Source: an uncultured Coriobacteriia bacterium (lineage in GTDB: Bacteria > Actinomycetota > Coriobacteriia > Coriobacteriales > QAMH01). From it: DNA of 55,691 nucleotides. The stretch covers positions 1-55,691 of the forward strand of contig CABSKV010000001.1 in NCBI GenBank assembly GCA_902478425.1, written 5' to 3'. A program made the position numbers and the translations under genes. Numbering within the stretch: the stretch's first letter is position 1; every line of letters starts with the position of its first letter. Positions 1,501-46,281 of this stretch are shown piece by piece. The notes beneath the pieces were generated by a model that was not told the origin of the DNA, searched no databases, and worked only from the letters and a program-made list of their open reading frames with translations.

Positions 1501-3393
1501 ATGTCGCCCCAGCATCCCAATCCGATGCAAGCTGGCCGCAAGGGCGGCCCCCGTGGTCCTCATGGCCCACACGGACCCCATGGCGGCGCGCCGGTCGAGA
1601 AGGCGAAGAACGCCAAGGGTACGGTTCGGCGTCTGCTCACCTTCATCAAGCCCGAGATTCCCAAGATCGTCCTCGTCTTGGTCTGCGCCGTCATCGCCAC
1701 CTTGTTCGATATCCTCTGCCCGCGGCAGCTCGGCATGGCCACGACCGAGATATTCCGCGCCGGTGTCGCGATCGCCAACGGCGAGGTGGGCGCGGGCGTG
1801 AATTTCGAGCTCCTCAAGGAGATACTGCTCATCCTCATCATCTTGTACGTGTGCTATCAGGTGTTCACGTACCTGCAGGCCTTCGTCATGGCGCGCGTCG
1901 CGCAAAACGTCGTCTACTCGCTGCGCCAGCAGACCGAGGAAAAGCTCAACCGCATTCCGCTGTCCTACTACGACTCGCATTCGAAGGGCGACATCCTCTC
2001 GCGCGTCGTCAACGACATCGACCTCATCTCGACGACCCTGCAAGACGGCATGACGCAGGCGCTCACCTCGGTCATCACCATCATCGGCGTCTTCATCATG
2101 ATGATGATCATGAGCCCGCTCGTCACGGTCATCGCGCTGTGCACGCTGCCGGTCTCCGTCGCCCTCACGGCCATCGTCGCCAAGCGCTCGCAGCGTTTCT
2201 TCCTCGCCCAGCAGACATCGCTCGGCATTCTCGACGCGCATATCGAGGAGACGTATGGCGGGCACACGGAGGTCAAGGCGTTCGCGCACGAGCAGGGTGC
2301 TATCGAGGATTTCGAGCGTATCAACAACGAGTACTTCGGACATGCCTGGCGCGCGCAGTTCGTCTCGGGCCTCATCCGCCCGCTCATGATCTTCGTGGGC
2401 AATCTCGCCTACATCGCCATCGTGTGCATCGGCGGATGGCAGGCCATCGTCGGCGCCATCACGGTTGGCGAGGTGCAGGCGTTCACGCAGTACATGCGCA
2501 ACTTCACGCGCCCCATCAGTCAGCTCGCGGGCATCATCAACACCTTCCAGGCCACGATTGCCGGCGCCGAGCGCGTCTTCGAGATCCTTGACCAGCCCGA
2601 GATGAGCGATGAGACCGGCCTGCTGCCCGACACGACGAAGGGCCGTGGTCACATCGAGTTCGAACACGTGCGCTTTGGCTATGACCCCGCCAAGCCCGTC
2701 ATTCACGATCTGTCGGTCGAGGTGCAGCCCGGCCAGATGGTCGCCATCGTGGGTCCCACAGGCGCGGGCAAGACGACGCTCGTCAACTTGCTCATGCGCT
2801 TCTACGAGATCGATGCGGGTGCAATCCTGCTCGACGGGCGCGATATCCGCAGCATCAAGCGCGATGAGCTGCGTGCCCACATGGGCATGGTGCTCCAGGA
2901 TACCTGGCTGTTCAACGGCACCATACGCGACAACATCGCCTATGGCGTTGACGAGGCAAGCGGCGAGGACATCGAGCGTGCCGCGCGTGCGGCCCACGTC
3001 GATCACTTCATCCACACGCTTCCCGACGGCTACGACACCGTCATCAACGAGGAGGCTTCCAACATATCGGCGGGCCAGCGCCAGCTCATCACCATCGCTC
3101 GCGCCCTGCTCGCCGACCCCGAAATCCTCATTCTCGACGAGGCGACCAGCTCCATCGACACGCGCACCGAGCGCCTCGTGCAGCATGCGATGACCGAGCT
3201 TGCGAGCACGCGCACGAGCTTCGTCATCGCGCATCGCCTGTCGACCATCCGCGACGCGGACGTGATTCTCGTGCTGAGGGAAGGCGACATCGTCGAGATG
3301 GGCACGCACGAGCAGCTCCTGCTGCAGGATGGCTTCTACGCCGAGCTTTACAACTCGCAGTTCAGCGATTGCATCGACGAGGTCGACTACTAA
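1501..3393 (+). CDS. ABC exporter, fused permease/ATP-binding subunit (partner of the upstream gene; heterodimeric type-1 exporter)
   Basis: The ATG lies 3 nt after the upstream stop with SD GAGGAGG. A TM domain is followed by Walker A GPTGAGKTT, signature ISAGQRQL, Walker B ILILDEATSSID and H-loop AHRLST. The N-terminus carries a GPRGPHGPHGPHGG repeat. Confidence 0.93.
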   Translation: MSPQHPNPMQAGRKGGPRGPHGPHGPHGGAPVEKAKNAKGTVRRLLTFIKPEIPKIVLVLVCAVIATLFDILCPRQLGMATTEIFRAGVAIANGEVGAGVNFELLKEILLILIILYVCYQVFTYLQAFVMARVAQNVVYSLRQQTEEKLNRIPLSYYDSHSKGDILSRVVNDIDLISTTLQDGMTQALTSVITIIGVFIMMMIMSPLVTVIALCTLPVSVALTAIVAKRSQRFFLAQQTSLGILDAHIEETYGGHTEVKAFAHEQGAIEDFERINNEYFGHAWRAQFVSGLIRPLMIFVGNLAYIAIVCIGGWQAIVGAITVGEVQAFTQYMRNFTRPISQLAGIINTFQATIAGAERVFEILDQPEMSDETGLLPDTTKGRGHIEFEHVRFGYDPAKPVIHDLSVEVQPGQMVAIVGPTGAGKTTLVNLLMRFYEIDAGAILLDGRDIRSIKRDELRAHMGMVLQDTWLFNGTIRDNIAYGVDEASGEDIERAARAAHVDHFIHTLPDGYDTVINEEASNISAGQRQLITIARALLADPEILILDEATSSIDTRTERLVQHAMTELASTRTSFVIAHRLSTIRDADVILVLREGDIVEMGTHEQLLLQDGFYAELYNSQFSDCIDEVDY

Positions 3394-24690: not shown

Positions 24691-25173
24691 ATGACAGGCA
24701 GGCGGCACGTGAAAAAGGAACGCACATACATCGCCAAGAATCGCAAGGCGCTGCACGATTACTTCGTCGAGGATCGCATCGAAGCGGGCATCGTGCTCAC
24801 AGGCACCGAGGTACGCTCGCTGCGCGAGAATTCGGCGCAGCTGCGCGATTGCTTCATCACGATCCGCAAGGGCGAGGCGTGGCTTAACGGCGTGCATATC
24901 GCCCCGTATAGCAACGGCTCCATCTTCAACGTCGAGCCCGAGCGCCGCCGCAAGCTGCTCCTACACAAGAAGGAGATCCTCAAGCTCGAGCAAGAGGCCT
25001 CCCAGCAGGGCTACTCGCTCATTCCGCTATCCATGTACTTTTCCGAGGAAGGTCGCGTGAAGGTCGAGGTCGGCGTTTGCAAGGGCAAGAAGCTCTACGA
25101 CAAGCGTGCCTCCATCAAGGAGCGCGACGCCAAGCGCGAAATCGCGCGCTCCATGAAGAACAGCAACCGTTAG
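24691..25173 (+). CDS. smpB: SsrA-binding protein
   Basis: Contains IAKNRKALHDYFVEDRIEAGIVLTGTEVRSLR and a KRKLLLHKKEI-type basic C-tail. Confidence 0.93.
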   Translation: MTGRRHVKKERTYIAKNRKALHDYFVEDRIEAGIVLTGTEVRSLRENSAQLRDCFITIRKGEAWLNGVHIAPYSNGSIFNVEPERRRKLLLHKKEILKLEQEASQQGYSLIPLSMYFSEEGRVKVEVGVCKGKKLYDKRASIKERDAKREIARSMKNSNR

Positions 25174-25175
25174 CA

Positions 25176-25208
25176 AATGAGACAAACGCTCAGTCTCGCT
25201 GTCTCATT
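25176..25208. repeat. 33-nt palindromic intergenic repeat (AATGAGACA-N15-TGTCTCATT), copy A
   Basis: AATGAGACAAACGCTCAGTCTCGCTGTCTCATT. It is identical to copy B at 45381-45413 except for the 3 central nucleotides, and lies between convergent smpB and rdgB. Confidence 0.65.
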
Positions 25209-25227: not shown

Positions 25228-25833
25228 TTAGTGTGATTCGAATTCGCGGATGAAGGCGTGCAGTGCCTCGCCACGATGCGAGATGGCGTCCTTTTGCTCG
25301 CTGGGCACTTCGGCCGTGGTCAACTTGCCATCAAAGGCGTCGGCGAAGAAGAGCGGGTCGTAGCCAAAGCCGTTGCTGCCGCGCTCCTCGTAGCCGATCT
25401 TTCCCTTGCAGCTGCCATGCGCCACGATTTCGGAATCGTCCGTGTCGACGAAAACGAGCGTGCACACGAAACGTGCGGTGCGCTCGTCATCGGGCACGTC
25501 GGCTAGCAGCTCGAGCAGCTTGGCGTTGTTGTCGGCATCGGTCGCGTCTTCGCCCGCGAATCGACTCGAAAAGACGCCGGGTGCGCCGTCGAGCGCGTCG
25601 ACGACCAGTCCACTGTCATCGGCGAGTGCGGGAAGCCCCGTGTTGTCGCGCGCGGCCAGCGCCTTGATGCGCGCGTTGCCCTCGAAGTCGTCGGCATCCT
25701 CCACGGGCTCGGGATAGCTGCCACAGTCCTTGAGGCTCACGAACTCCCAGCCCGTCACCGGCGTGAGCATGCGGGAAATCTCCTCGAGCTTGTGGGCGTT
25801 ATTCGTCGCGATGACGACTTTCTTCGTGGCCAT
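25228..25833 (-). CDS. rdgB: dITP/XTP pyrophosphatase (RdgB/HAM1 family)
   Basis: Contains VVIATNNAHKLEEI, GFGYDPLF and ISHRGEA. ATG 25833 follows GGAGGAG. The ORF-track extension to 26469 overlaps rph. Confidence 0.9.
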   Translation of the reverse strand: MATKKVVIATNNAHKLEEISRMLTPVTGWEFVSLKDCGSYPEPVEDADDFEGNARIKALAARDNTGLPALADDSGLVVDALDGAPGVFSSRFAGEDATDADNNAKLLELLADVPDDERTARFVCTLVFVDTDDSEIVAHGSCKGKIGYEERGSNGFGYDPLFFADAFDGKLTTAEVPSEQKDAISHRGEALHAFIREFESH

Positions 25834-42962: not shown

Positions 42963-44033
42963 ATGAAGCGCGTGGTAATCAAGATCGGTTCGTCCACCCT
43001 CGTGAAGGATGGCAAGGTTGATGCCGTCTTCGTGGGGCACCTCGCTTCCGAGTGCGCCAACCTCATGCATGACGAGGACATCCAGCCTATCATCGTGTCT
43101 TCGGGCTCCATCGCGCTGGGTCTCGAAGTGCTCGGCATTCATGGCGAACGCCCCGATGACATGCCCACGCTGCAGGCCGCGGCCTCGATCGGGCAGGTCG
43201 GCCTCATCCGCCAATACACCGATACCTTCGCCTGCTTCGGCGTGACGGTGGGCCAGATCCTCATGACGCGCGCGACTACCGGTCAACGCGAGTCGTACCT
43301 GCACGCGCGCGATACCATCGAGCGCCTACTCGAGCTCGGTGTGGTGCCCATCATCAACGAGAACGACACCGTTGCCGTCGAGGAGATTCGCTTCGGCGAC
43401 AACGACACGCTCGCGGCTATGGTCGCGACATCCGTGAATGCTGATCTTGTGGTCCTGCTGAGTGACATCGACGGCCTGTACACGGCCGATCCGCGCAAGA
43501 ACGAAGATGCCGAGCTGCTCAATACCGTGAGCAAGATGAGCGAGGAAATCGAGAACGGCGCCGGTGGCGTTGGCAGTCGCAGTGGTTCGGGCGGCATGCT
43601 CACCAAGATCGCGGCCGCACGCGTGCTCATGGCGGCGGGCATTCCGATGGTCATCTGCGAGGGGCATCGTCGCGAAGCCATCACCGATGCGGTGCACGGA
43701 CGCCAGGTCGGCACGACCTTCTTCGACGAGAGCTCGAACGGCCTTGCGGCGCGCAAGTCCTGGATTGCGCTTGGCGGCAAGGTGAAGGGCCGCGTCGCCT
43801 GTGACGATGGTGCCTGCAATGCGCTGCTCAACCACGGGGGCTCGCTGCTGCCCGTGGGCATCGCTTCTGTCGAAGGCTCGTTTGCGGCGGGCGACCCGGT
43901 CGACGTCGTCGACTTGCAGGGTCGCATCATCGGTCGTGGACTTGCCGGCTATGCGGCCTCCGAGCTCGAGGGCCTGCTCGGCAAGCATGGCGAGCGCGAA
44001 TTCATCAACCGAGACGAACTCGTCATCTTCTAG
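42963..44033 (+). CDS. proB: Glutamate 5-kinase
   Basis: Contains VVIKIGSSTL, INENDTVAVEEIRFGDNDTLAA and a C-terminal PUA domain. Confidence 0.95.
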   Translation: MKRVVIKIGSSTLVKDGKVDAVFVGHLASECANLMHDEDIQPIIVSSGSIALGLEVLGIHGERPDDMPTLQAAASIGQVGLIRQYTDTFACFGVTVGQILMTRATTGQRESYLHARDTIERLLELGVVPIINENDTVAVEEIRFGDNDTLAAMVATSVNADLVVLLSDIDGLYTADPRKNEDAELLNTVSKMSEEIENGAGGVGSRSGSGGMLTKIAAARVLMAAGIPMVICEGHRREAITDAVHGRQVGTTFFDESSNGLAARKSWIALGGKVKGRVACDDGACNALLNHGGSLLPVGIASVEGSFAAGDPVDVVDLQGRIIGRGLAGYAASELEGLLGKHGEREFINRDELVIF

Positions 44034-44065
44034 ATGAGACAAATATCGCCGGGGCATTTTTGTCT
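44034..44065. repeat. Palindromic repeat, copy C (degenerate; inverted relative to copy D)
   Basis: ATGAGACAAATATCGCCGGGGCATTTTTGTCT starts at the base after the proB stop. It matches the reverse complement of copy D over this 32-nt core apart from 1 mismatch; beyond it the 3' arm has decayed. Confidence 0.55.
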
Positions 44066-44134
44066 TGTCCGCTATTATCCGCCCGGCGAATACGGCTGCT
44101 CTGTGTCAAGGAGTCCCTGACCCGTGGCGCACGG

Positions 44135-44171
44135 AATGAGACAAAAATGCCCCGGCGGTATTTGTCTCATT
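44135..44171. repeat. Palindromic repeat, copy D (AATGAGACAAA-N15-TTTGTCTCATT)
   Basis: AATGAGACAAAAATGCCCCGGCGGTATTTGTCTCATT has 11-bp perfect arms. The arms are shared with copies A and B, but the loop differs. Confidence 0.65.
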
Positions 44172-44304
44172 TCGACCGAAGACGCGAAGCGCCGTAGCGG
44201 AGAAATCTCGCCACTATCCCGTCAGCCGAAGCGATACGGCGGGGCTATCTTCGAACCGCTATACTTATGCCGTTATGTAACCTTTCAGGGAAGGTGAATC
44301 TGGA

Positions 44305-45309
44305 ATGTCTCTCAAAATCGGCATCAATGGTTTTGGCCGCATCGGCCGTCTGGTTTTCCGTCTTGCTGAGCTCGACCCCGATGTCGAGGTCGTTGCCATC
44401 AACAACCCCAGCGACCTTGAGTGTGCCGCCTATCTGACCAAGTATGATTCCAGCCAGGGTCGTGTCTTCGAGGAGTGCTTCGCCGAGGAAGGCGCCCTCG
44501 TCGTCGATGGTCACAGGGTCAAGGCATTCCAGACGCGCGAGCCCAAGGAGCTCGACTGGGCTTCCGTTGGCGCAGAGGTCGTCATCGAGTCCACGGGTCG
44601 CCTCAAGACCGGCGAGGCCTGCCAGGTGCATCTCGACAACGGCGCCAAGAAGGTCGTCATCTCCGCCCCGGGCACGGATGTGGACGCGACCATCGTCATG
44701 GGCGTCAACCAGGACATCTACGATCCGGCGACGATGAACATCGTCTCCAATGCCTCGTGCACCACGAACTGCCTTGCGCCGTTTGCCAAGGTCCTCAACG
44801 ACAGCTTCGGCATCAAGCGCGGCCTCATGAACACCATTCACGCCTATACCAACGACCAGAAGATCCTCGACGTGCACCACAAGGACTTCCGTCGTTCGCG
44901 CGCTGCGGCGCTTTCCATGATTCCCACCTCCACGGGTGCTGCCAAGGCCGTTGGCCTGGTGCTTCCCAGCCTGCAGGGCAAGCTCGACGGTTTCGCGACG
45001 CGCGTTCCCACGCCGACAGGCTCGATGGTCGACCTCACGGCCGAGCTTGAGAAGGACGTCACGGTCGACGAGATCAACGCCGCGATGAAGGCTGCCGCCG
45101 AGGGCCCCATGAAGGGCATCCTCGAGTACTGCGTCGACCCCATCGTCAGCTGCGACATCATCGGCGACCTGCACTCCTCGATCTTCGACTCCAAGCTCAC
45201 CAAGGTGCTCGGCGGCGAGGGCAACTTCGTCAAGTGCATTTCCTGGTACGACAACGAGATGGGCTACTCCGCCCGTTGCGTCGACCTGGCCAAGTTCCTC
45301 GTGGCATAG
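44305..45309 (+). CDS. gap: Type I glyceraldehyde-3-phosphate dehydrogenase
   Basis: Contains IGINGFGRIGRLVFR and the active site SNASCTTNCLAP, followed by WYDNEMGYS. Confidence 0.96.
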   Translation: MSLKIGINGFGRIGRLVFRLAELDPDVEVVAINNPSDLECAAYLTKYDSSQGRVFEECFAEEGALVVDGHRVKAFQTREPKELDWASVGAEVVIESTGRLKTGEACQVHLDNGAKKVVISAPGTDVDATIVMGVNQDIYDPATMNIVSNASCTTNCLAPFAKVLNDSFGIKRGLMNTIHAYTNDQKILDVHHKDFRRSRAAALSMIPTSTGAAKAVGLVLPSLQGKLDGFATRVPTPTGSMVDLTAELEKDVTVDEINAAMKAAAEGPMKGILEYCVDPIVSCDIIGDLHSSIFDSKLTKVLGGEGNFVKCISWYDNEMGYSARCVDLAKFLVA

Positions 45310-45334
45310 ACGCTGCAGGAAATCCGATCTTAGG

Positions 45335-45365
45335 GAGGGGGGTCTCGCGCTCCCCTTCTTGTTTT
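45335..45365 (+). terminator. Candidate intrinsic terminator after gap
   Basis: A G-rich/C-rich 7-bp stem (GGGGGGT/GCTCCCC, including wobbles) is followed by TTCTTGTTTT. Confidence 0.45.
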
Positions 45366-45380
45366 GAGAGTGAGACAGAA

Positions 45381-45413
45381 AATGAGACAAACGCTCGCAC
45401 TCGCTGTCTCATT
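45381..45413. repeat. 33-nt palindromic intergenic repeat, copy B
   Basis: AATGAGACAAACGCTCGCACTCGCTGTCTCATT is preceded by a partial arm GTGAGACAG. It lies between gap and rsmI. Confidence 0.65.
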
Positions 45414-45444
45414 CCGCAGGTCACGAGCGTAGGGAGGCGAAAAG

Positions 45445-46281
45445 ATGACCGGCAAGCTGACCATAGTCCCCACGCCGCTCGGCAATCTGGGCGATATGAC
45501 CGCTCGCGCGCTCGAAGCGCTCGAACAGGCCGACGTCGTCTGCGCCGAGGACACGCGCGTTACCGGCAAACTGCTTGCGCATTTCGGCATCCAGGCACGT
45601 CTCGAGCGATGCGACGAGAACGTCATCGCCTCCAAGACCCCTGCGCTCATCGCACGCATGCGCGAGGGCGAGCAGATTGCGTTTTGCTCGGATGCGGGCA
45701 TGCCCGGCATCAGCGACCCCGGCAGCGTCCTCGTTGATGCGGCGCGCGATGCCAGCGTCCCCGTCGACGTGCTGCCTGGCCCCAGCGCCGTGATAACCGC
45801 GCTGGTGAGCTCCGGCTTCAAGCATAACGCCTTCTACTTTGGTGGCTTCTTGCCGCGCAAGGATGCCGAGCGCACTCGACTGCTCGAGTCACTGGCAGCC
45901 CTCGATGCCGCGCTCGTCTTCTACGAGTCGCCCCATCGTGTCGCCGCTGCCGTCGAGAGCATTGCTCAGGCGTATGGCGAAAGGCCAGTCGCATTGTGCC
46001 GCGAGTTGACGAAGCTGCACGAGGAGGTGCTGCGGCTGCCCGCAACCGAGCTCGCGCATAACCTGGCTGCGCGCGACGCCATCAAAGGCGAGGTCGTCCT
46101 CGTGATCGCGCCGCCGGACGTTCGGGCGCAGCAGGAGGCCTCACTCGATGACCCTGCCCTACACGAGCACATCGCCGCCGAGCTGACCGCCGGCACGCCC
46201 AAGTCGGCACTCGCCAAGGAGCTCGCCCGCGAGCTCGACCTCCCCAAAAACAAGCTCTACGACCTCATCTTGGGGATGTAA
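45445..46281 (+). CDS. rsmI: 16S rRNA (cytidine1402-2'-O)-methyltransferase
   Basis: Tetrapyrrole-methylase fold, with LTIVPTPLGNLGDMTARALEALEQADVVCAEDTR and SDAGMPGISDPG. Confidence 0.92.
   Translation: MTGKLTIVPTPLGNLGDMTARALEALEQADVVCAEDTRVTGKLLAHFGIQARLERCDENVIASKTPALIARMREGEQIAFCSDAGMPGISDPGSVLVDAARDASVPVDVLPGPSAVITALVSSGFKHNAFYFGGFLPRKDAERTRLLESLAALDAALVFYESPHRVAAAVESIAQAYGERPVALCRELTKLHEEVLRLPATELAHNLAARDAIKGEVVLVIAPPDVRAQQEASLDDPALHEHIAAELTAGTPKSALAKELARELDLPKNKLYDLILGM

What the first reader, a model, noticed from the sequence alone, without database searches (positions are those of the whole stretch)
25176..25208. Twin 33-nt palindromic intergenic elements (AATGAGACA-N15-TGTCTCATT), 20 kb apart, differing only in the 3 central bases
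Seen: 25176-25208 reads AATGAGACAAACGCTCAGTCTCGCTGTCTCATT and 45381-45413 reads AATGAGACAAACGCTCGCACTCGCTGTCTCATT. Thirty of 33 positions are identical, with 9-bp perfect terminal arms, and the only differences lie at the centre of the loop. Both sit just downstream of stop codons (smpB/rdgB convergent gap; gap-rsmI gap). Copy B is preceded by a partial extra arm (GTGAGACAG).

Together with copies C and D at 44034-44171, this gives four members in 55 kb.

Inference: this is a REP/BIME-like family, which could act as a protein-binding site, an mRNA 3'-end stabiliser, a terminator helper or a target for a REP-associated transposase encoded elsewhere. I do not recognise this motif.
Basis: seen in the sequence. 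Interest (0 to 1): 0.6.

Follow-up and report, generated by a model that had tools for sequence, protein, structure and literature searches.

The report
REP hairpin repeats with their transposase
The two 33-base palindromes belong to a family of about 80 small hairpin repeats that sit between genes in this gut Coriobacteriia genome and match the repeats bracketing its single REP-type tyrosine transposase gene, so this is a sound new example of a known kind of miniature mobile DNA in a phylum where the papers I read do not report it.

Summary
Window 25176-25208 and 45381-45413 are 33-nt AATGAGACA-N15-TGTCTCATT palindromes, 30/33 identical. 44033-44171 is an inverted doublet of a 37-nt sister family.

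Genome-wide (1.53 Mb MAG) there are 83 copies with at most 2 arm mismatches. 81 are intergenic (P = 3e-78), typically about 15 nt after a stop codon. Twelve form doublets with an exact 20-nt spacer, and the inverted doublets fold into about 33-bp hairpins, like REPINs.

Contig C83 carries the genome's only Y1/HUH transposase gene. It has HFH and RYIHHNP motifs, and its closest fold match is E. coli TnpA_REP (4ER8). REP doublets in inverted orientation bracket it, which is a REPtron.

Most genomes of the genus keep this gene at the same locus, each flanked by repeats with near-identical arms (one base changed in two species) but a species-specific centre. Across Coriobacteriia, 7/7 genomes with at least 8 copies have the transposase, against 8/26 with none.

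Differences from classical REPs: no GTAG/CGTC tag, and a transposase with a C-terminal HTH-like tail (TIRYT / subclass-2.1-like).

The parts
25176..25208 (.). REP family A, master sequence (AATGAGACA-AACGCTCAGTCTCGC-TGTCTCATT). It lies in the convergent smpB/rdgB gap, 2 nt after the smpB stop codon.
   Evidence: There are 12 identical copies in the genome. It folds as a 9-11-bp stem with a large loop: DNA -9.6 kcal/mol, z = -4.6. The same element sits at the orthologous site in G011. A B-like hairpin sits there in G001 and an N17 doublet in G006.
45381..45413 (.). REP subfamily A' (centre GCGAGTGCGAGCGTT on the minus strand). It lies in the gap-rsmI spacer.
   Evidence: Three copies are identical and about 6 belong to the A' type, including C83:2258 beside the transposase gene and C83:1809. 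The orthologous spacer holds other REP varieties in 7 congeners and no REP in G002, G012, G001 or G008.
45370..45378 (+). Partial extra arm GTGAGACAG just upstream of copy A'.
   Evidence: Similar partial arm duplications occur at C44:11230, C56:3740 and C78:600. G002 keeps only GAGTGACA at this place, without a REP.
45337..45364 (+). Terminator-like hairpin plus T-run of gap. It is separate from the REP and upstream of it.
   Evidence: A similar hairpin stands alone in the G002 spacer.
44033..44069 (.). REP family B, left and degenerate copy (GATGAGACA-N19-TGTCTTGTC). It begins on the G of the proB TAG stop codon.
   Evidence: It is the reverse complement of 44135-44171.
44135..44171 (.). REP family B, right copy (AATGAGACAAAA-ATGCCCCGGCGGT-ATTTGTCTCATT).
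   Evidence: about 20 B copies genome-wide. Together with 44033-44069 it folds into one long hairpin, 44034-44170, DNA -46.3 kcal/mol, which is a REPIN-like inverted doublet.

Best explanation
The two 33-nt palindromes are copies of a REP (repetitive extragenic palindrome) family. The genome's single RAYT-type Y1/HUH tyrosine transposase, encoded on contig C83 (2361-3113, 250 aa), most likely maintains the family.

Shown:
- There are about 63 copies of the 33-nt family (A/A') and about 20 of a 37-nt sister family (B) that shares the 9-bp arms.
- They are almost exclusively intergenic and sit close to gene 3' ends.
- They occur singly or as doublets with an exact 20-nt spacer. The inverted doublets form about 33-bp hairpins.
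- The transposase gene is bracketed by two REP doublets in inverted orientation.
- The same gene at the same locus in sister species is bracketed by repeats with near-identical arms and a species-specific centre.
- The arms and the CGAGACTGA half of the centre are almost invariant, whereas the other 5 nt of the centre vary freely.

Inferred, by analogy with E. coli TnpA_REP and IS200/IS605 enzymes:
- On transiently single-stranded DNA each REP folds into a hairpin.
- The enzyme recognises the hairpin foot (arms) and the conserved half of the loop.
- It cleaves and rejoins through a 5'-phosphotyrosine link to Tyr118, using the HUH pair His59/His61. This copies, excises or swaps REPs.
- The C-terminal HTH-like tail may add duplex-DNA contacts.

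Effects on the host, such as hairpins at mRNA 3' ends or donated TGA stop codons, are by-products or secondary uses.
For: 1. Abundance. There are 58-61 exact pattern hits in 1.53 Mb against 0 for the reversed control, and 83 copies with at most 2 arm mismatches. The 9-mer arm is about 33 times over-represented.

2. Location. 81/83 copies are intergenic while 90% of the genome is coding, binomial P = 3.2e-78. In tandem gaps the median distance is 15 nt from the upstream stop and 77 nt from the downstream start.

3. Doublets. Twelve doublets have exactly 20 nt between the units. The inverted ones fold into 30-33-bp stems, -24 to -36 kcal/mol.

4. REPtron. The only Y1_Tnp gene of the genome is C83:2361-3113. 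Pfam PF01797 gives E = 1.6e-15 and NCBIfam REP_Tyr_transpos gives E = 6.6e-17. It is flanked by REPs at 2258 and 2311 (both '-') and at 3115 and 3168 (both '+').

5. Fold. The AlphaFold model (pLDDT 83.5) matches 4ER8, TnpA_REP bound to a REP hairpin, best: E = 8.5e-7, target TM 0.70. IS200/IS608/ISDra2 transposases follow at about 3e-4. The profile search also ranks 4ER8 first. HUH, Y-x3-NP and WSSY are invariant in 7 orthologues.

6. Comparative evidence.
- 11/13 congeners carry the repeats and 11/13 carry a Y1_Tnp hit.
- G008 has neither. G009 has a divergent orthologue flanked by its own small REP family.
- The orthologues in G001, G005 and G006 are bracketed by inverted repeats with the same or one-base-changed arms and other centres. 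G007 and G012 show a doublet on one side only.
- The gene is syntenic between comF-like and nhaC-like genes.
- Class-wide, the transposase is present in 7/7 genomes with at least 8 copies against 8/26 with none, Fisher P = 0.0015.
- An independent case is G229, where a RAYT at 2908351-2909079 lies between arm-type REPs at 2908273 and 2909193.

7. Turnover. There are filled and empty orthologous sites, and different varieties at the same site.

8. Constraint. Positions 10-18 of the centre are conserved in 44-55 of 55 copies, while positions 19-23 are polymorphic.
Against: - No transposition or cleavage event was observed. The presence/absence differences could also arise by deletion between short direct repeats. 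For example, ACGATGGGG flanks the 44-nt indel that separates G012 from G007.
- The repeats lack the unpaired GTAG or CGTC tag of the classical REP super-families.
- The protein scores below the NCBIfam equivalog cut-off (61.7 against 80 bits). It also carries a C-terminal HTH-like tail typical of TnpA_REP subclass 2.1/TIRYT, a group reported not to have REP-like hairpins nearby (PMC6006769).
- G011 has 47 copies but no detected transposase gene. This could be loss or an assembly gap.
- 8 of 26 genomes without arm-type repeats still have a homologue.
- Gene calls come from a home-made caller.
Confidence: 0.85

Rival explanations
1. The hairpins exist mainly for the host, as transcription terminators or mRNA 3'-end protectors placed after genes. 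The link to the transposase gene would then be incidental.
For: The median distance from the upstream stop codon is 15 nt, and 22 copies lie in convergent gaps. The RNA folds reach -11 to -18 kcal/mol. E. coli REPs are known to stabilise upstream mRNA (established knowledge; abstract of PMC3733652).
Against: - There is no U-tract, and the loops are 15 nt, so the terminator scan does not call them.
- gap has its own terminator-like hairpin upstream of the REP, and in G002 that hairpin stands alone.
- 10 copies lie in divergent (promoter) gaps and 2 lie inside ORFs.
- This model does not explain the conserved asymmetric loop half, the fixed 20-nt doublets, or the bracketing of a Y1 gene in several genera.
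Confidence: 0.07
2. The elements are operator sites of a dimeric DNA-binding regulator. Two 9-bp half-sites at a fixed 15-bp spacing would define a large regulon.
For: The arms are perfectly conserved and the spacing is fixed. The transposase itself carries an HTH-like tail that could bind duplex arms.
Against: The sites cluster at gene 3' ends rather than promoters. They occur as doublets that form long hairpins. The centre is conserved on one side only. Copy number varies from 0 to 79 between congeners, and different varieties occupy the same site. These are features of a repeat population, not of a regulon.
Confidence: 0.03
3. The elements are miniature inverted-repeat elements or partner sites of an enzyme other than the Y1 protein. 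Candidates are a DDE transposase or the Vsr/DUF559-like nucleases that other notes of this scan report beside palindromic modules in Coriobacteriia.
For: Earlier notes of this scan describe nuclease-associated palindromic arrays in Coriobacteriia. These are unchecked leads. The arms look like short terminal inverted repeats.
Against: In this genome and its relatives the gene bracketed by these particular repeats is the Y1 gene. No target-site duplication is visible in the flanks. At 33 nt the element is far below the usual MITE size. Those nuclease modules are 57-100 bp and unrelated in sequence.
Confidence: 0.04

Closest known systems
REP/BIME (REPIN) elements with TnpA_REP (RAYT) in REPtrons of E. 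coli, Pseudomonas and Stenotrophomonas (PMC3333891, PMC3479197, PMC3116915)
   Same: - Imperfect palindromes of 20-40 nt.
- Tens to hundreds of dispersed extragenic copies.
- Singlets plus doublets, with inverted doublets forming long hairpins.
- A single-copy, vertically inherited Y1/HUH gene bracketed by the repeats in inverted orientation.
- 4ER8 is the best fold match.
   Different: - No GTAG tag at the hairpin foot.
- The invariant part is the 9-bp arm plus one half of the loop.
- The enzyme is 250 aa with a C-terminal HTH-like tail, against 165 aa, and scores below the NCBIfam equivalog cut-off.
- The host is Actinomycetota (Coriobacteriia) and the copy number is modest (about 54 per Mb).
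TIRtrons / TIRYT (Di Nocera 2013, PMC3733652), equated with TnpA_REP subclass 2.1 (Quentin 2018, PMC6006769)
   Same: - A long RAYT-like protein with a C-terminal HTH-type extension.
- The gene is flanked by inverted repeats.
- In some species the flanking repeats are self-complementary, moderately amplified and arranged in dimers or clusters.
- Related Coriobacteriia copies with the same arms carry GGGGACAG, which fits the TIR motif GGGGWSAS (G384 and G221).
   Different: - Quentin et al. found no REP-like hairpins near subclass 2.1 genes. Here the flanking repeats are clear hairpins, and they are amplified about 80-fold.
- This genome's centre (CGAGACTGA) does not fit GGGGWSAS.
- I infer the subclass from length, tail and motifs. 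I did not run their classifier.
IS200/IS605 insertion sequences (IS608, ISDra2)
   Same: The Y1/HUH catalytic core is shared (PF01797). Subterminal DNA hairpins are recognised on single-stranded DNA. These are the second-best structural matches.
   Different: Here the gene is single-copy and sits at a fixed chromosomal locus. Only the hairpins are amplified. No tnpB is present, and the Y motif is the class-2 form Y-x3-NP.

Membership tests
REP elements (repetitive extragenic palindromes) | Short (20-40 nt) imperfect palindrome able to form a stem-loop | tested here: met
   The units are 33 and 37 nt with 9-12-bp stems. DNA folds reach -7.3 to -9.6 kcal/mol, z = -3 to -4.7.
REP elements (repetitive extragenic palindromes) | High copy number, dispersed over the chromosome | tested here: met
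   83 copies lie on 45 of the 157 contigs, about 54 per Mb. The reversed-pattern control gives 0.
REP elements (repetitive extragenic palindromes) | Extragenic location | tested here: met
   81/83 copies lie outside called genes, P = 3e-78. The gene calls come from my own caller.
REP elements (repetitive extragenic palindromes) | Organisation in doublets or clusters (BIME/REPIN) | tested here: met
   There are 12 doublets with an exact 20-nt spacer. Six of them have units clearly in opposite orientation, and the inverted ones fold into about 30-33-bp hairpins. The window's B doublet also folds this way.
REP elements (repetitive extragenic palindromes) | Unpaired GTAG or CGTC tag at one end (the two super-families of Di Nocera 2013) | tested here: not met
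   The flank profile shows A at -1 and T at +1, and a frequent CTGACCTGCGA 5' extension. There is no GTAG or CGTC at the hairpin foot.
REPtron (RAYT gene bracketed by its REPs) | Y1 transposase gene flanked by REPs in inverted orientation | tested here: met
   In C83 the REPs at 2258 and 2311 are '-' and those at 3115 and 3168 are '+', around the gene at 2361-3113. The same arrangement holds in G001, G005, G006 and G229.
REPtron (RAYT gene bracketed by its REPs) | Single copy, vertically inherited at a fixed locus | tested here: met
   The genome has one PF01797 hit. The gene lies between comF-like and nhaC-like genes in G000, G001, G005, G007 and G012; in G006 only the comF-like side was matched.
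RAYT / TnpA_REP protein family | HUH motif and the catalytic Tyr in a Y-x3-NP motif | tested here: met
   H59-F-H61 and R117-Y118-I-H-H-N122-P123 are invariant in 7 orthologues. They align to the same motifs of 4ER8.
RAYT / TnpA_REP protein family | Score above the NCBIfam equivalog cut-off (NF047646, 80 bits) | tested here: not met
   The score is 61.7 bits, E = 6.6e-17. The protein is related but outside the curated equivalog.
RAYT / TnpA_REP protein family | Fold closest to TnpA_REP rather than to IS200/IS605 TnpA | tested here: met
   Foldseek ranks 4ER8_A first with E = 8.5e-7, target TM 0.70 and rmsd 2.7 Å. IS200, ISDra2 and IS608 score at or above 3e-4.
RAYT / TnpA_REP protein family | Binds, cleaves and rejoins its REP as single-stranded DNA | not testable with these tools
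   This needs in vitro assays such as those of PMC3333891.
TIRYT / TnpA_REP subclass 2.1 | Long protein with a C-terminal HTH-type extension (Bac_DnaA_C, HTH_23 or HTH_28-like) | tested here: inconclusive
   The protein is 250 aa. Its conserved tail is G-[FL]-[ST]-[IV]-R-x-I-E-x-x-T-G-[IV]-G-R. The model shows helices at 192-249. Only sub-threshold HTH hits were found, including HTH_28, HTH_23, HTH_7 and Sigma70_r4_2 at E = 0.007-0.14.
TIRYT / TnpA_REP subclass 2.1 | Flanking inverted repeats with the motif GGGG[AT][CG]A[CG] | tested here: not met
   The centre in this genome is (G/A)CGAGACTGA. The motif does occur in arm-type repeats of other genera, for example GGGGACAG in G384 and G221.

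The most novel reading that the evidence does not exclude
HTH-bearing TnpA_REP enzymes (subclass 2.1 / TIRYT) are described in the literature as lacking REP-type hairpins. Under this reading they in fact maintain true REP/REPIN-like hairpin populations across Coriobacteriia.

The 8-9-bp arm (A)ATGAGACA would be a class-wide recognition module, perhaps read by the C-terminal HTH. The hairpin centre would co-evolve with each species' fast-evolving transposase allele: 50-57% protein identity against 80-88% in tblastx matches of the neighbouring genes.

Because different varieties occupy the same orthologous sites in sister species, the enzyme may replace resident REPs in situ, giving concerted evolution, rather than only inserting at new sites.
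Probability: 0.4. Interest if true: 0.6.

Novelty: new member of a known kind. Interest (0 to 1): 0.42.

Why it matters
REP/RAYT partnerships have been worked out almost entirely in Proteobacteria. The surveys I read list tagged REPs in 8 phyla, none of them Actinomycetota or Bacillota (PMC3733652). They also report that the HTH-bearing TnpA_REP subclass has no REP-like hairpins nearby (PMC6006769).

This genus of human-gut Atopobiaceae-like bacteria offers a compact natural series. It includes one closed genome and species-specific repeat varieties on constant arms, all around one syntenic transposase locus. That makes recognition determinants and repeat turnover directly testable.

There are practical points too:
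- The repeats explain many conserved intergenic hairpins.
- They supply the stop codons of 16 gene calls.
- They mark variable linkers, for example in the comF-like gene.
- They should be masked before these genomes are searched for regulatory motifs or small RNAs.

Tried and rejected
- Rfam. Nothing relevant matched in 43900-45600.
- Single-sequence phmmer against PDB gave only spurious protein A hits. The 7-sequence profile and the fold search were needed.
- Second Y1 paralogue of the relatives (266 aa, HFHIVIK, RYVWRNPV). I checked its flanks in 5 genomes and found no arm-type repeats and no copy of the 46-nt element. It is therefore not the partner of family B.
- CRISPR-like reading of the 53-bp periodicity. 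Rejected, because there are only doublets, the spacers are related to one another, and inverted units occur.
- Orientation bias relative to transcription. None was found: 17 same against 13 opposite.
- Genome-wide empty-site survey against the sister species G011. I built a joined-flank query of 23 kb but abandoned it as too long to hand in. Four orthologous sites were compared by hand instead.
- Literature search for the motif letters returned only unrelated primer matches. No paper linking RAYTs to Coriobacteriia or Atopobiaceae was found in the library.
- Contig ends. None ends in an arm, so the repeats do not explain the MAG's fragmentation.

Full report
**1. Observation**

The window reads AATGAGACAAACGCTCAGTCTCGCTGTCTCATT at 25176-25208 and AATGAGACAAACGCTCGCACTCGCTGTCTCATT at 45381-45413. 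The two are identical at 30 of 33 positions. They have perfect 9-bp arms and differ only at the three central bases.

A pattern search finds these two plus a 37-nt relative at 44135-44171. In 100 dinucleotide-preserving shuffles it finds none. A degenerate inverted partner of the 37-mer lies at 44033-44069 and begins on the last base of the upstream stop codon.

- SmpB ends at 25173.
- RdgB converges on it and ends at 25228.
- Glutamate 5-kinase (proB) ends at 44033.
- GAPDH runs from 44305 to 45309.
- RsmI starts at 45445.

**2. Genome-wide picture**

The window lies in a 1.53-Mb, 157-contig, 61.5% G+C assembly that is 89.6% complete.

- The exact pattern occurs 58-61 times, and the reversed control gives 0.
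- Allowing at most 2 arm mismatches gives 83 non-overlapping copies, about 54 per Mb.
- The 9-mer arm occurs 74 and 78 times on the two strands, against 2.3 expected. Nearly every arm has its partner 15 or 19 nt away.

There are two families.

- Family A has about 63 copies of 33 nt. Its consensus is AATGAGACA-(G/A)CGAGACTGA-SSNYY-TGTCTCATT.
- Family B has about 20 copies of 37 nt. Its consensus is AATGAGACAAAA-nTGCCCCGGCGn-TTTTGTCTCATT.

The window's first copy is the master sequence of family A, with 12 identical copies. The second belongs to a subfamily A' (centre GCGAGTGCGAG), with 3 identical copies and about 6 members in all. This explains the three-base difference.

Within family A the arms and centre positions 10-18 are nearly invariant (44-55 of 55 copies). 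Positions 19-23 are polymorphic. The conservation is therefore uneven across the element, which points to constraint and not only to recent copying.

**3. Position relative to genes**

I wrote a simple codon-statistics gene caller. It gives 1433 genes and 90% coding density, and its calls in the window agree with the NCBIfam hits.

- 81 of 83 copies are intergenic, binomial P = 3.2e-78.
- 49 lie in tandem gaps, 22 in convergent gaps and 10 in divergent gaps.
- In tandem gaps the median distance is 15 nt from the upstream stop and 77 nt from the downstream start.
- Sixteen gene calls end at the TGA inside the arm (AATGA).
- Orientation, defined by the asymmetric centre, shows no bias relative to transcription: 17 same against 13 opposite.

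**4. Doublets**

Twelve pairs have exactly 20 nt between the units, and the spacers are related to one another (around CAGGTACC).

Where the two units are inverted, the 86-nt unit folds into a near-perfect stem of about 33 bp with the spacer as loop. For example, C78:3828-3913 gives -34.6 kcal/mol. In the doublet, the 'loop' of a single unit is fully paired with its partner. This is the REPIN architecture.

The window's 44033-44171 is such an inverted doublet of family B, at -46.3 kcal/mol.

Single units fold with 9-11-bp stems. As DNA they reach -7.3 to -9.6 kcal/mol (z = -3.0 to -4.7), and as RNA -11 to -18.5 kcal/mol.

**5. The transposase**

A search of the genus with Pfam Y1_Tnp finds one hit in this genome, at C83:2394-2726. 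The ORF runs from 2361 to 3113 and encodes 250 aa.

- It carries HFH (His59, His61) and RYIHHNP (Tyr118).
- It matches PF01797 at E = 1.6e-15.
- It matches NCBIfam 'REP-associated tyrosine transposase' at E = 6.6e-17, but at 61.7 bits it is below the 80-bit equivalog cut-off.

The gene is bracketed by four family-A repeats. Those at 2258-2290 and 2311-2343 are in '-' orientation. Those at 3115-3147 and 3168-3200 are in '+' orientation. Each pair has a 20-nt spacer. This is the REPtron arrangement described for E. coli and other Proteobacteria (PMC3333891).

A profile of seven orthologues ranks E. coli TnpA_REP (4ER8) first in the PDB and aligns the HUH and Tyr motifs. An AlphaFold model (pLDDT 83.5) matches 4ER8 best, with E = 8.5e-7, target TM 0.70 and rmsd 2.7 Å. 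IS200, ISDra2 and IS608 transposases score about 400 times worse.

Residues about 190-250 form a helical tail with the invariant motif R-x-I-E-x-x-T-G-I-G-R. This tail gives only sub-threshold hits to several HTH families.

**6. Relatives**

The record titles of matching contigs place the genus among uncultured gut Coriobacteriia / Atopobiaceae. Neighbours in the hit list are labelled Parolsenella, Olsenella and Tractidigestivibacter.

Within the genus:
- 11 of 13 genomes carry 5-79 exact copies, while 28 genomes of other genera in the same family and order carry none.
- 11 of 13 carry a Y1_Tnp hit, the orthologue in all of them.
- G008 has neither the repeats nor the gene.
- G009 has a divergent orthologue bracketed by its own 27-nt palindrome. 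That palindrome forms a small family of 5 copies, including inverted doublets.
- G011 has 47 repeats but no detected gene, through either loss or an assembly gap.

In G001, G005 and G006 the orthologue is bracketed by inverted repeats with the same arms, or arms changed at one base, and a different centre. In G007 and G012 only an inverted doublet on one side was detected.

The gene sits between the same comF-like and nhaC-like neighbours in G000, G001, G005, G007 and G012. In G006 only the comF-like side was matched within the locus. Yet the orthologues are only 50-57% identical in protein, whereas tblastx matches of the neighbours are 80-88% identical. The gene is 48.9% G+C against 61.5% for the genome.

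Across 401 Coriobacteriia genomes the arm pair ATGAGACA...TGTCTCAT occurs in 16 genomes of 11 genera, in a patchy distribution. A full-length homologue (32-57% identity) is present in all 7 genomes with at least 8 copies, against 8 of 26 genomes with none. Fisher's test gives P = 0.0015.

In G229 a homologue at 2908351-2909079 lies between arm-type repeats at 2908273 and 2909193.

**7. Turnover at orthologous sites**

smpB/rdgB gap:
- G011 has the identical element.
- G001 has a B-like hairpin.
- G006 has an inverted doublet of a 35-nt variety.

gap-rsmI spacer:
- Seven congeners have other varieties. The perfectly palindromic GTTGCTC-A-GAGCAAC occurs in G004, G005, G006 and G007.
- G002 has only the terminator-like hairpin plus GAGTGACA, which is an empty site.
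- G012, G001 and G008 lack a REP.

Directly after the proB stop:
- G000 has the B doublet.
- G011 has the palindromic variety.
- Five other species have the AATGGGACA variety.

comF-like linker next to the transposase:
- G000, G001, G005, G006 and G012 each have their own variety at the same place.
- G012 and G007 differ by a 44-nt indel that contains the repeat and is bounded by ACGATGGGG direct repeats.

These data show gain, loss and replacement. They do not show which mechanism caused them.

**8. Alternatives**

A primary terminator role is unlikely for three reasons.
- The elements lack a U-tract and are not called by the terminator scan.
- gap has its own terminator-like hairpin at 45337-45354 upstream of the REP.
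- Ten copies lie in divergent gaps.

An operator or regulon reading does not fit the 3'-end location, the doublets or the variable copy number. No Rfam family matches.

**9. Comparison with the literature**

E. coli TnpA_REP binds, cleaves and recombines REP/BIME single strands (PMC3333891) and has been crystallised on a REP hairpin (PMC3479197). REPINs and single-copy RAYTs are described in Pseudomonas (PMC3116915).

Di Nocera et al. found GTAG- or CGTC-tagged REPs in 8 phyla, not including Actinobacteria. They defined TIRtrons/TIRYTs as RAYT-like genes flanked by inverted repeats that are sometimes self-complementary, moderately amplified and dimeric (PMC3733652).

Quentin et al. place most TIRYTs in TnpA_REP subclass 2.1. 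These are long proteins with a C-terminal HTH, and the authors state that no REP-like sequences were found near those genes (PMC6006769).

The present enzyme has the length, the tail and the Y-x3-NP signature of that group, although I did not run their classifier. Its flanking repeats are nonetheless plain hairpins, amplified about 80-fold. The element has no GTAG or CGTC tag.

Earlier notes of this scan report similar hairpin-plus-RayT pairs in other Bacillota and Coriobacteriia genomes. I read them after reaching my interpretation and used them only as a pointer to the TIRYT/subclass-2.1 papers.

**10. Verdict**

These are REP-type repeats with a cognate RAYT-type transposase.

The system is a new member of a known kind. 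It is notable for its phylum, for the HTH-bearing enzyme and for the constant-arm, variable-centre design. Catalysis, mobility and any host function are inferred, not shown.

Noticed in passing
window 44167-44212: A further repeat, CATTTCGACCGAAGACGCGAAGCGCCGTAGCGGAGAAATCTCGCC, lies upstream of gap. It has only 3 copies in this genome but, judged from the match lists, tens of copies at 88-93% identity in most congeners. Related copies also lie in the gap-rsmI spacer of G012 and in the comF-like linker of G005, G006, G007 and G012. Its nature is unknown.
   Followed up: partly
own genome contig C83:1809-1841 (outside the window): A 33-nt A' repeat sits in frame inside the comF-like ORF (C83:1368-2237) and adds 11 codons (NETDARTRCLI) without a stop. 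The same linker hosts each species' own repeat variety in the relatives.
   Followed up: partly
own genome, 16 sites (e.g. C10:3083, C22:10114, C38:4857, C45:2528): The neighbouring gene call ends at the TGA inside the repeat arm (AATGA). The repeats therefore supply or overlap stop codons. At window 44033 the B copy overlaps the proB TAG by one base.
   Followed up: partly
relatives: G006:C1:380489-380938, G001:C1:207993, G005:C10:123672, G007:C1:12004, G009:C14:30501: A second Y1-like paralogue of 266-319 aa (HFHIVIK, RYVWRNPV) looks well conserved between species. It has no arm-type repeats in its flanks and was not found in this assembly. It may be a domesticated Y1 protein with another role.
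   Followed up: partly
own genome contig C83:2361-3113: The transposase gene has 48.9% G+C against 61.5% for the genome and 63-65% for its neighbours. Its orthologues are only 50-57% identical in protein, while tblastx matches of the flanking genes are 80-88% identical. This suggests fast evolution or allele replacement at a fixed locus.
   Followed up: partly
window 45337-45364: The terminator-like hairpin of gap (GGGGGGTCTCGCGCTCCC followed by CTTCTTGTTT) is separate from the REP. A comparable hairpin stands alone in the same spacer of G002.
   Followed up: yes
own genome contig C22:10922-10954: This is the only other copy scored as 'genic' by my gene caller. The ORF call there was not verified and may be spurious.
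   Followed up: no
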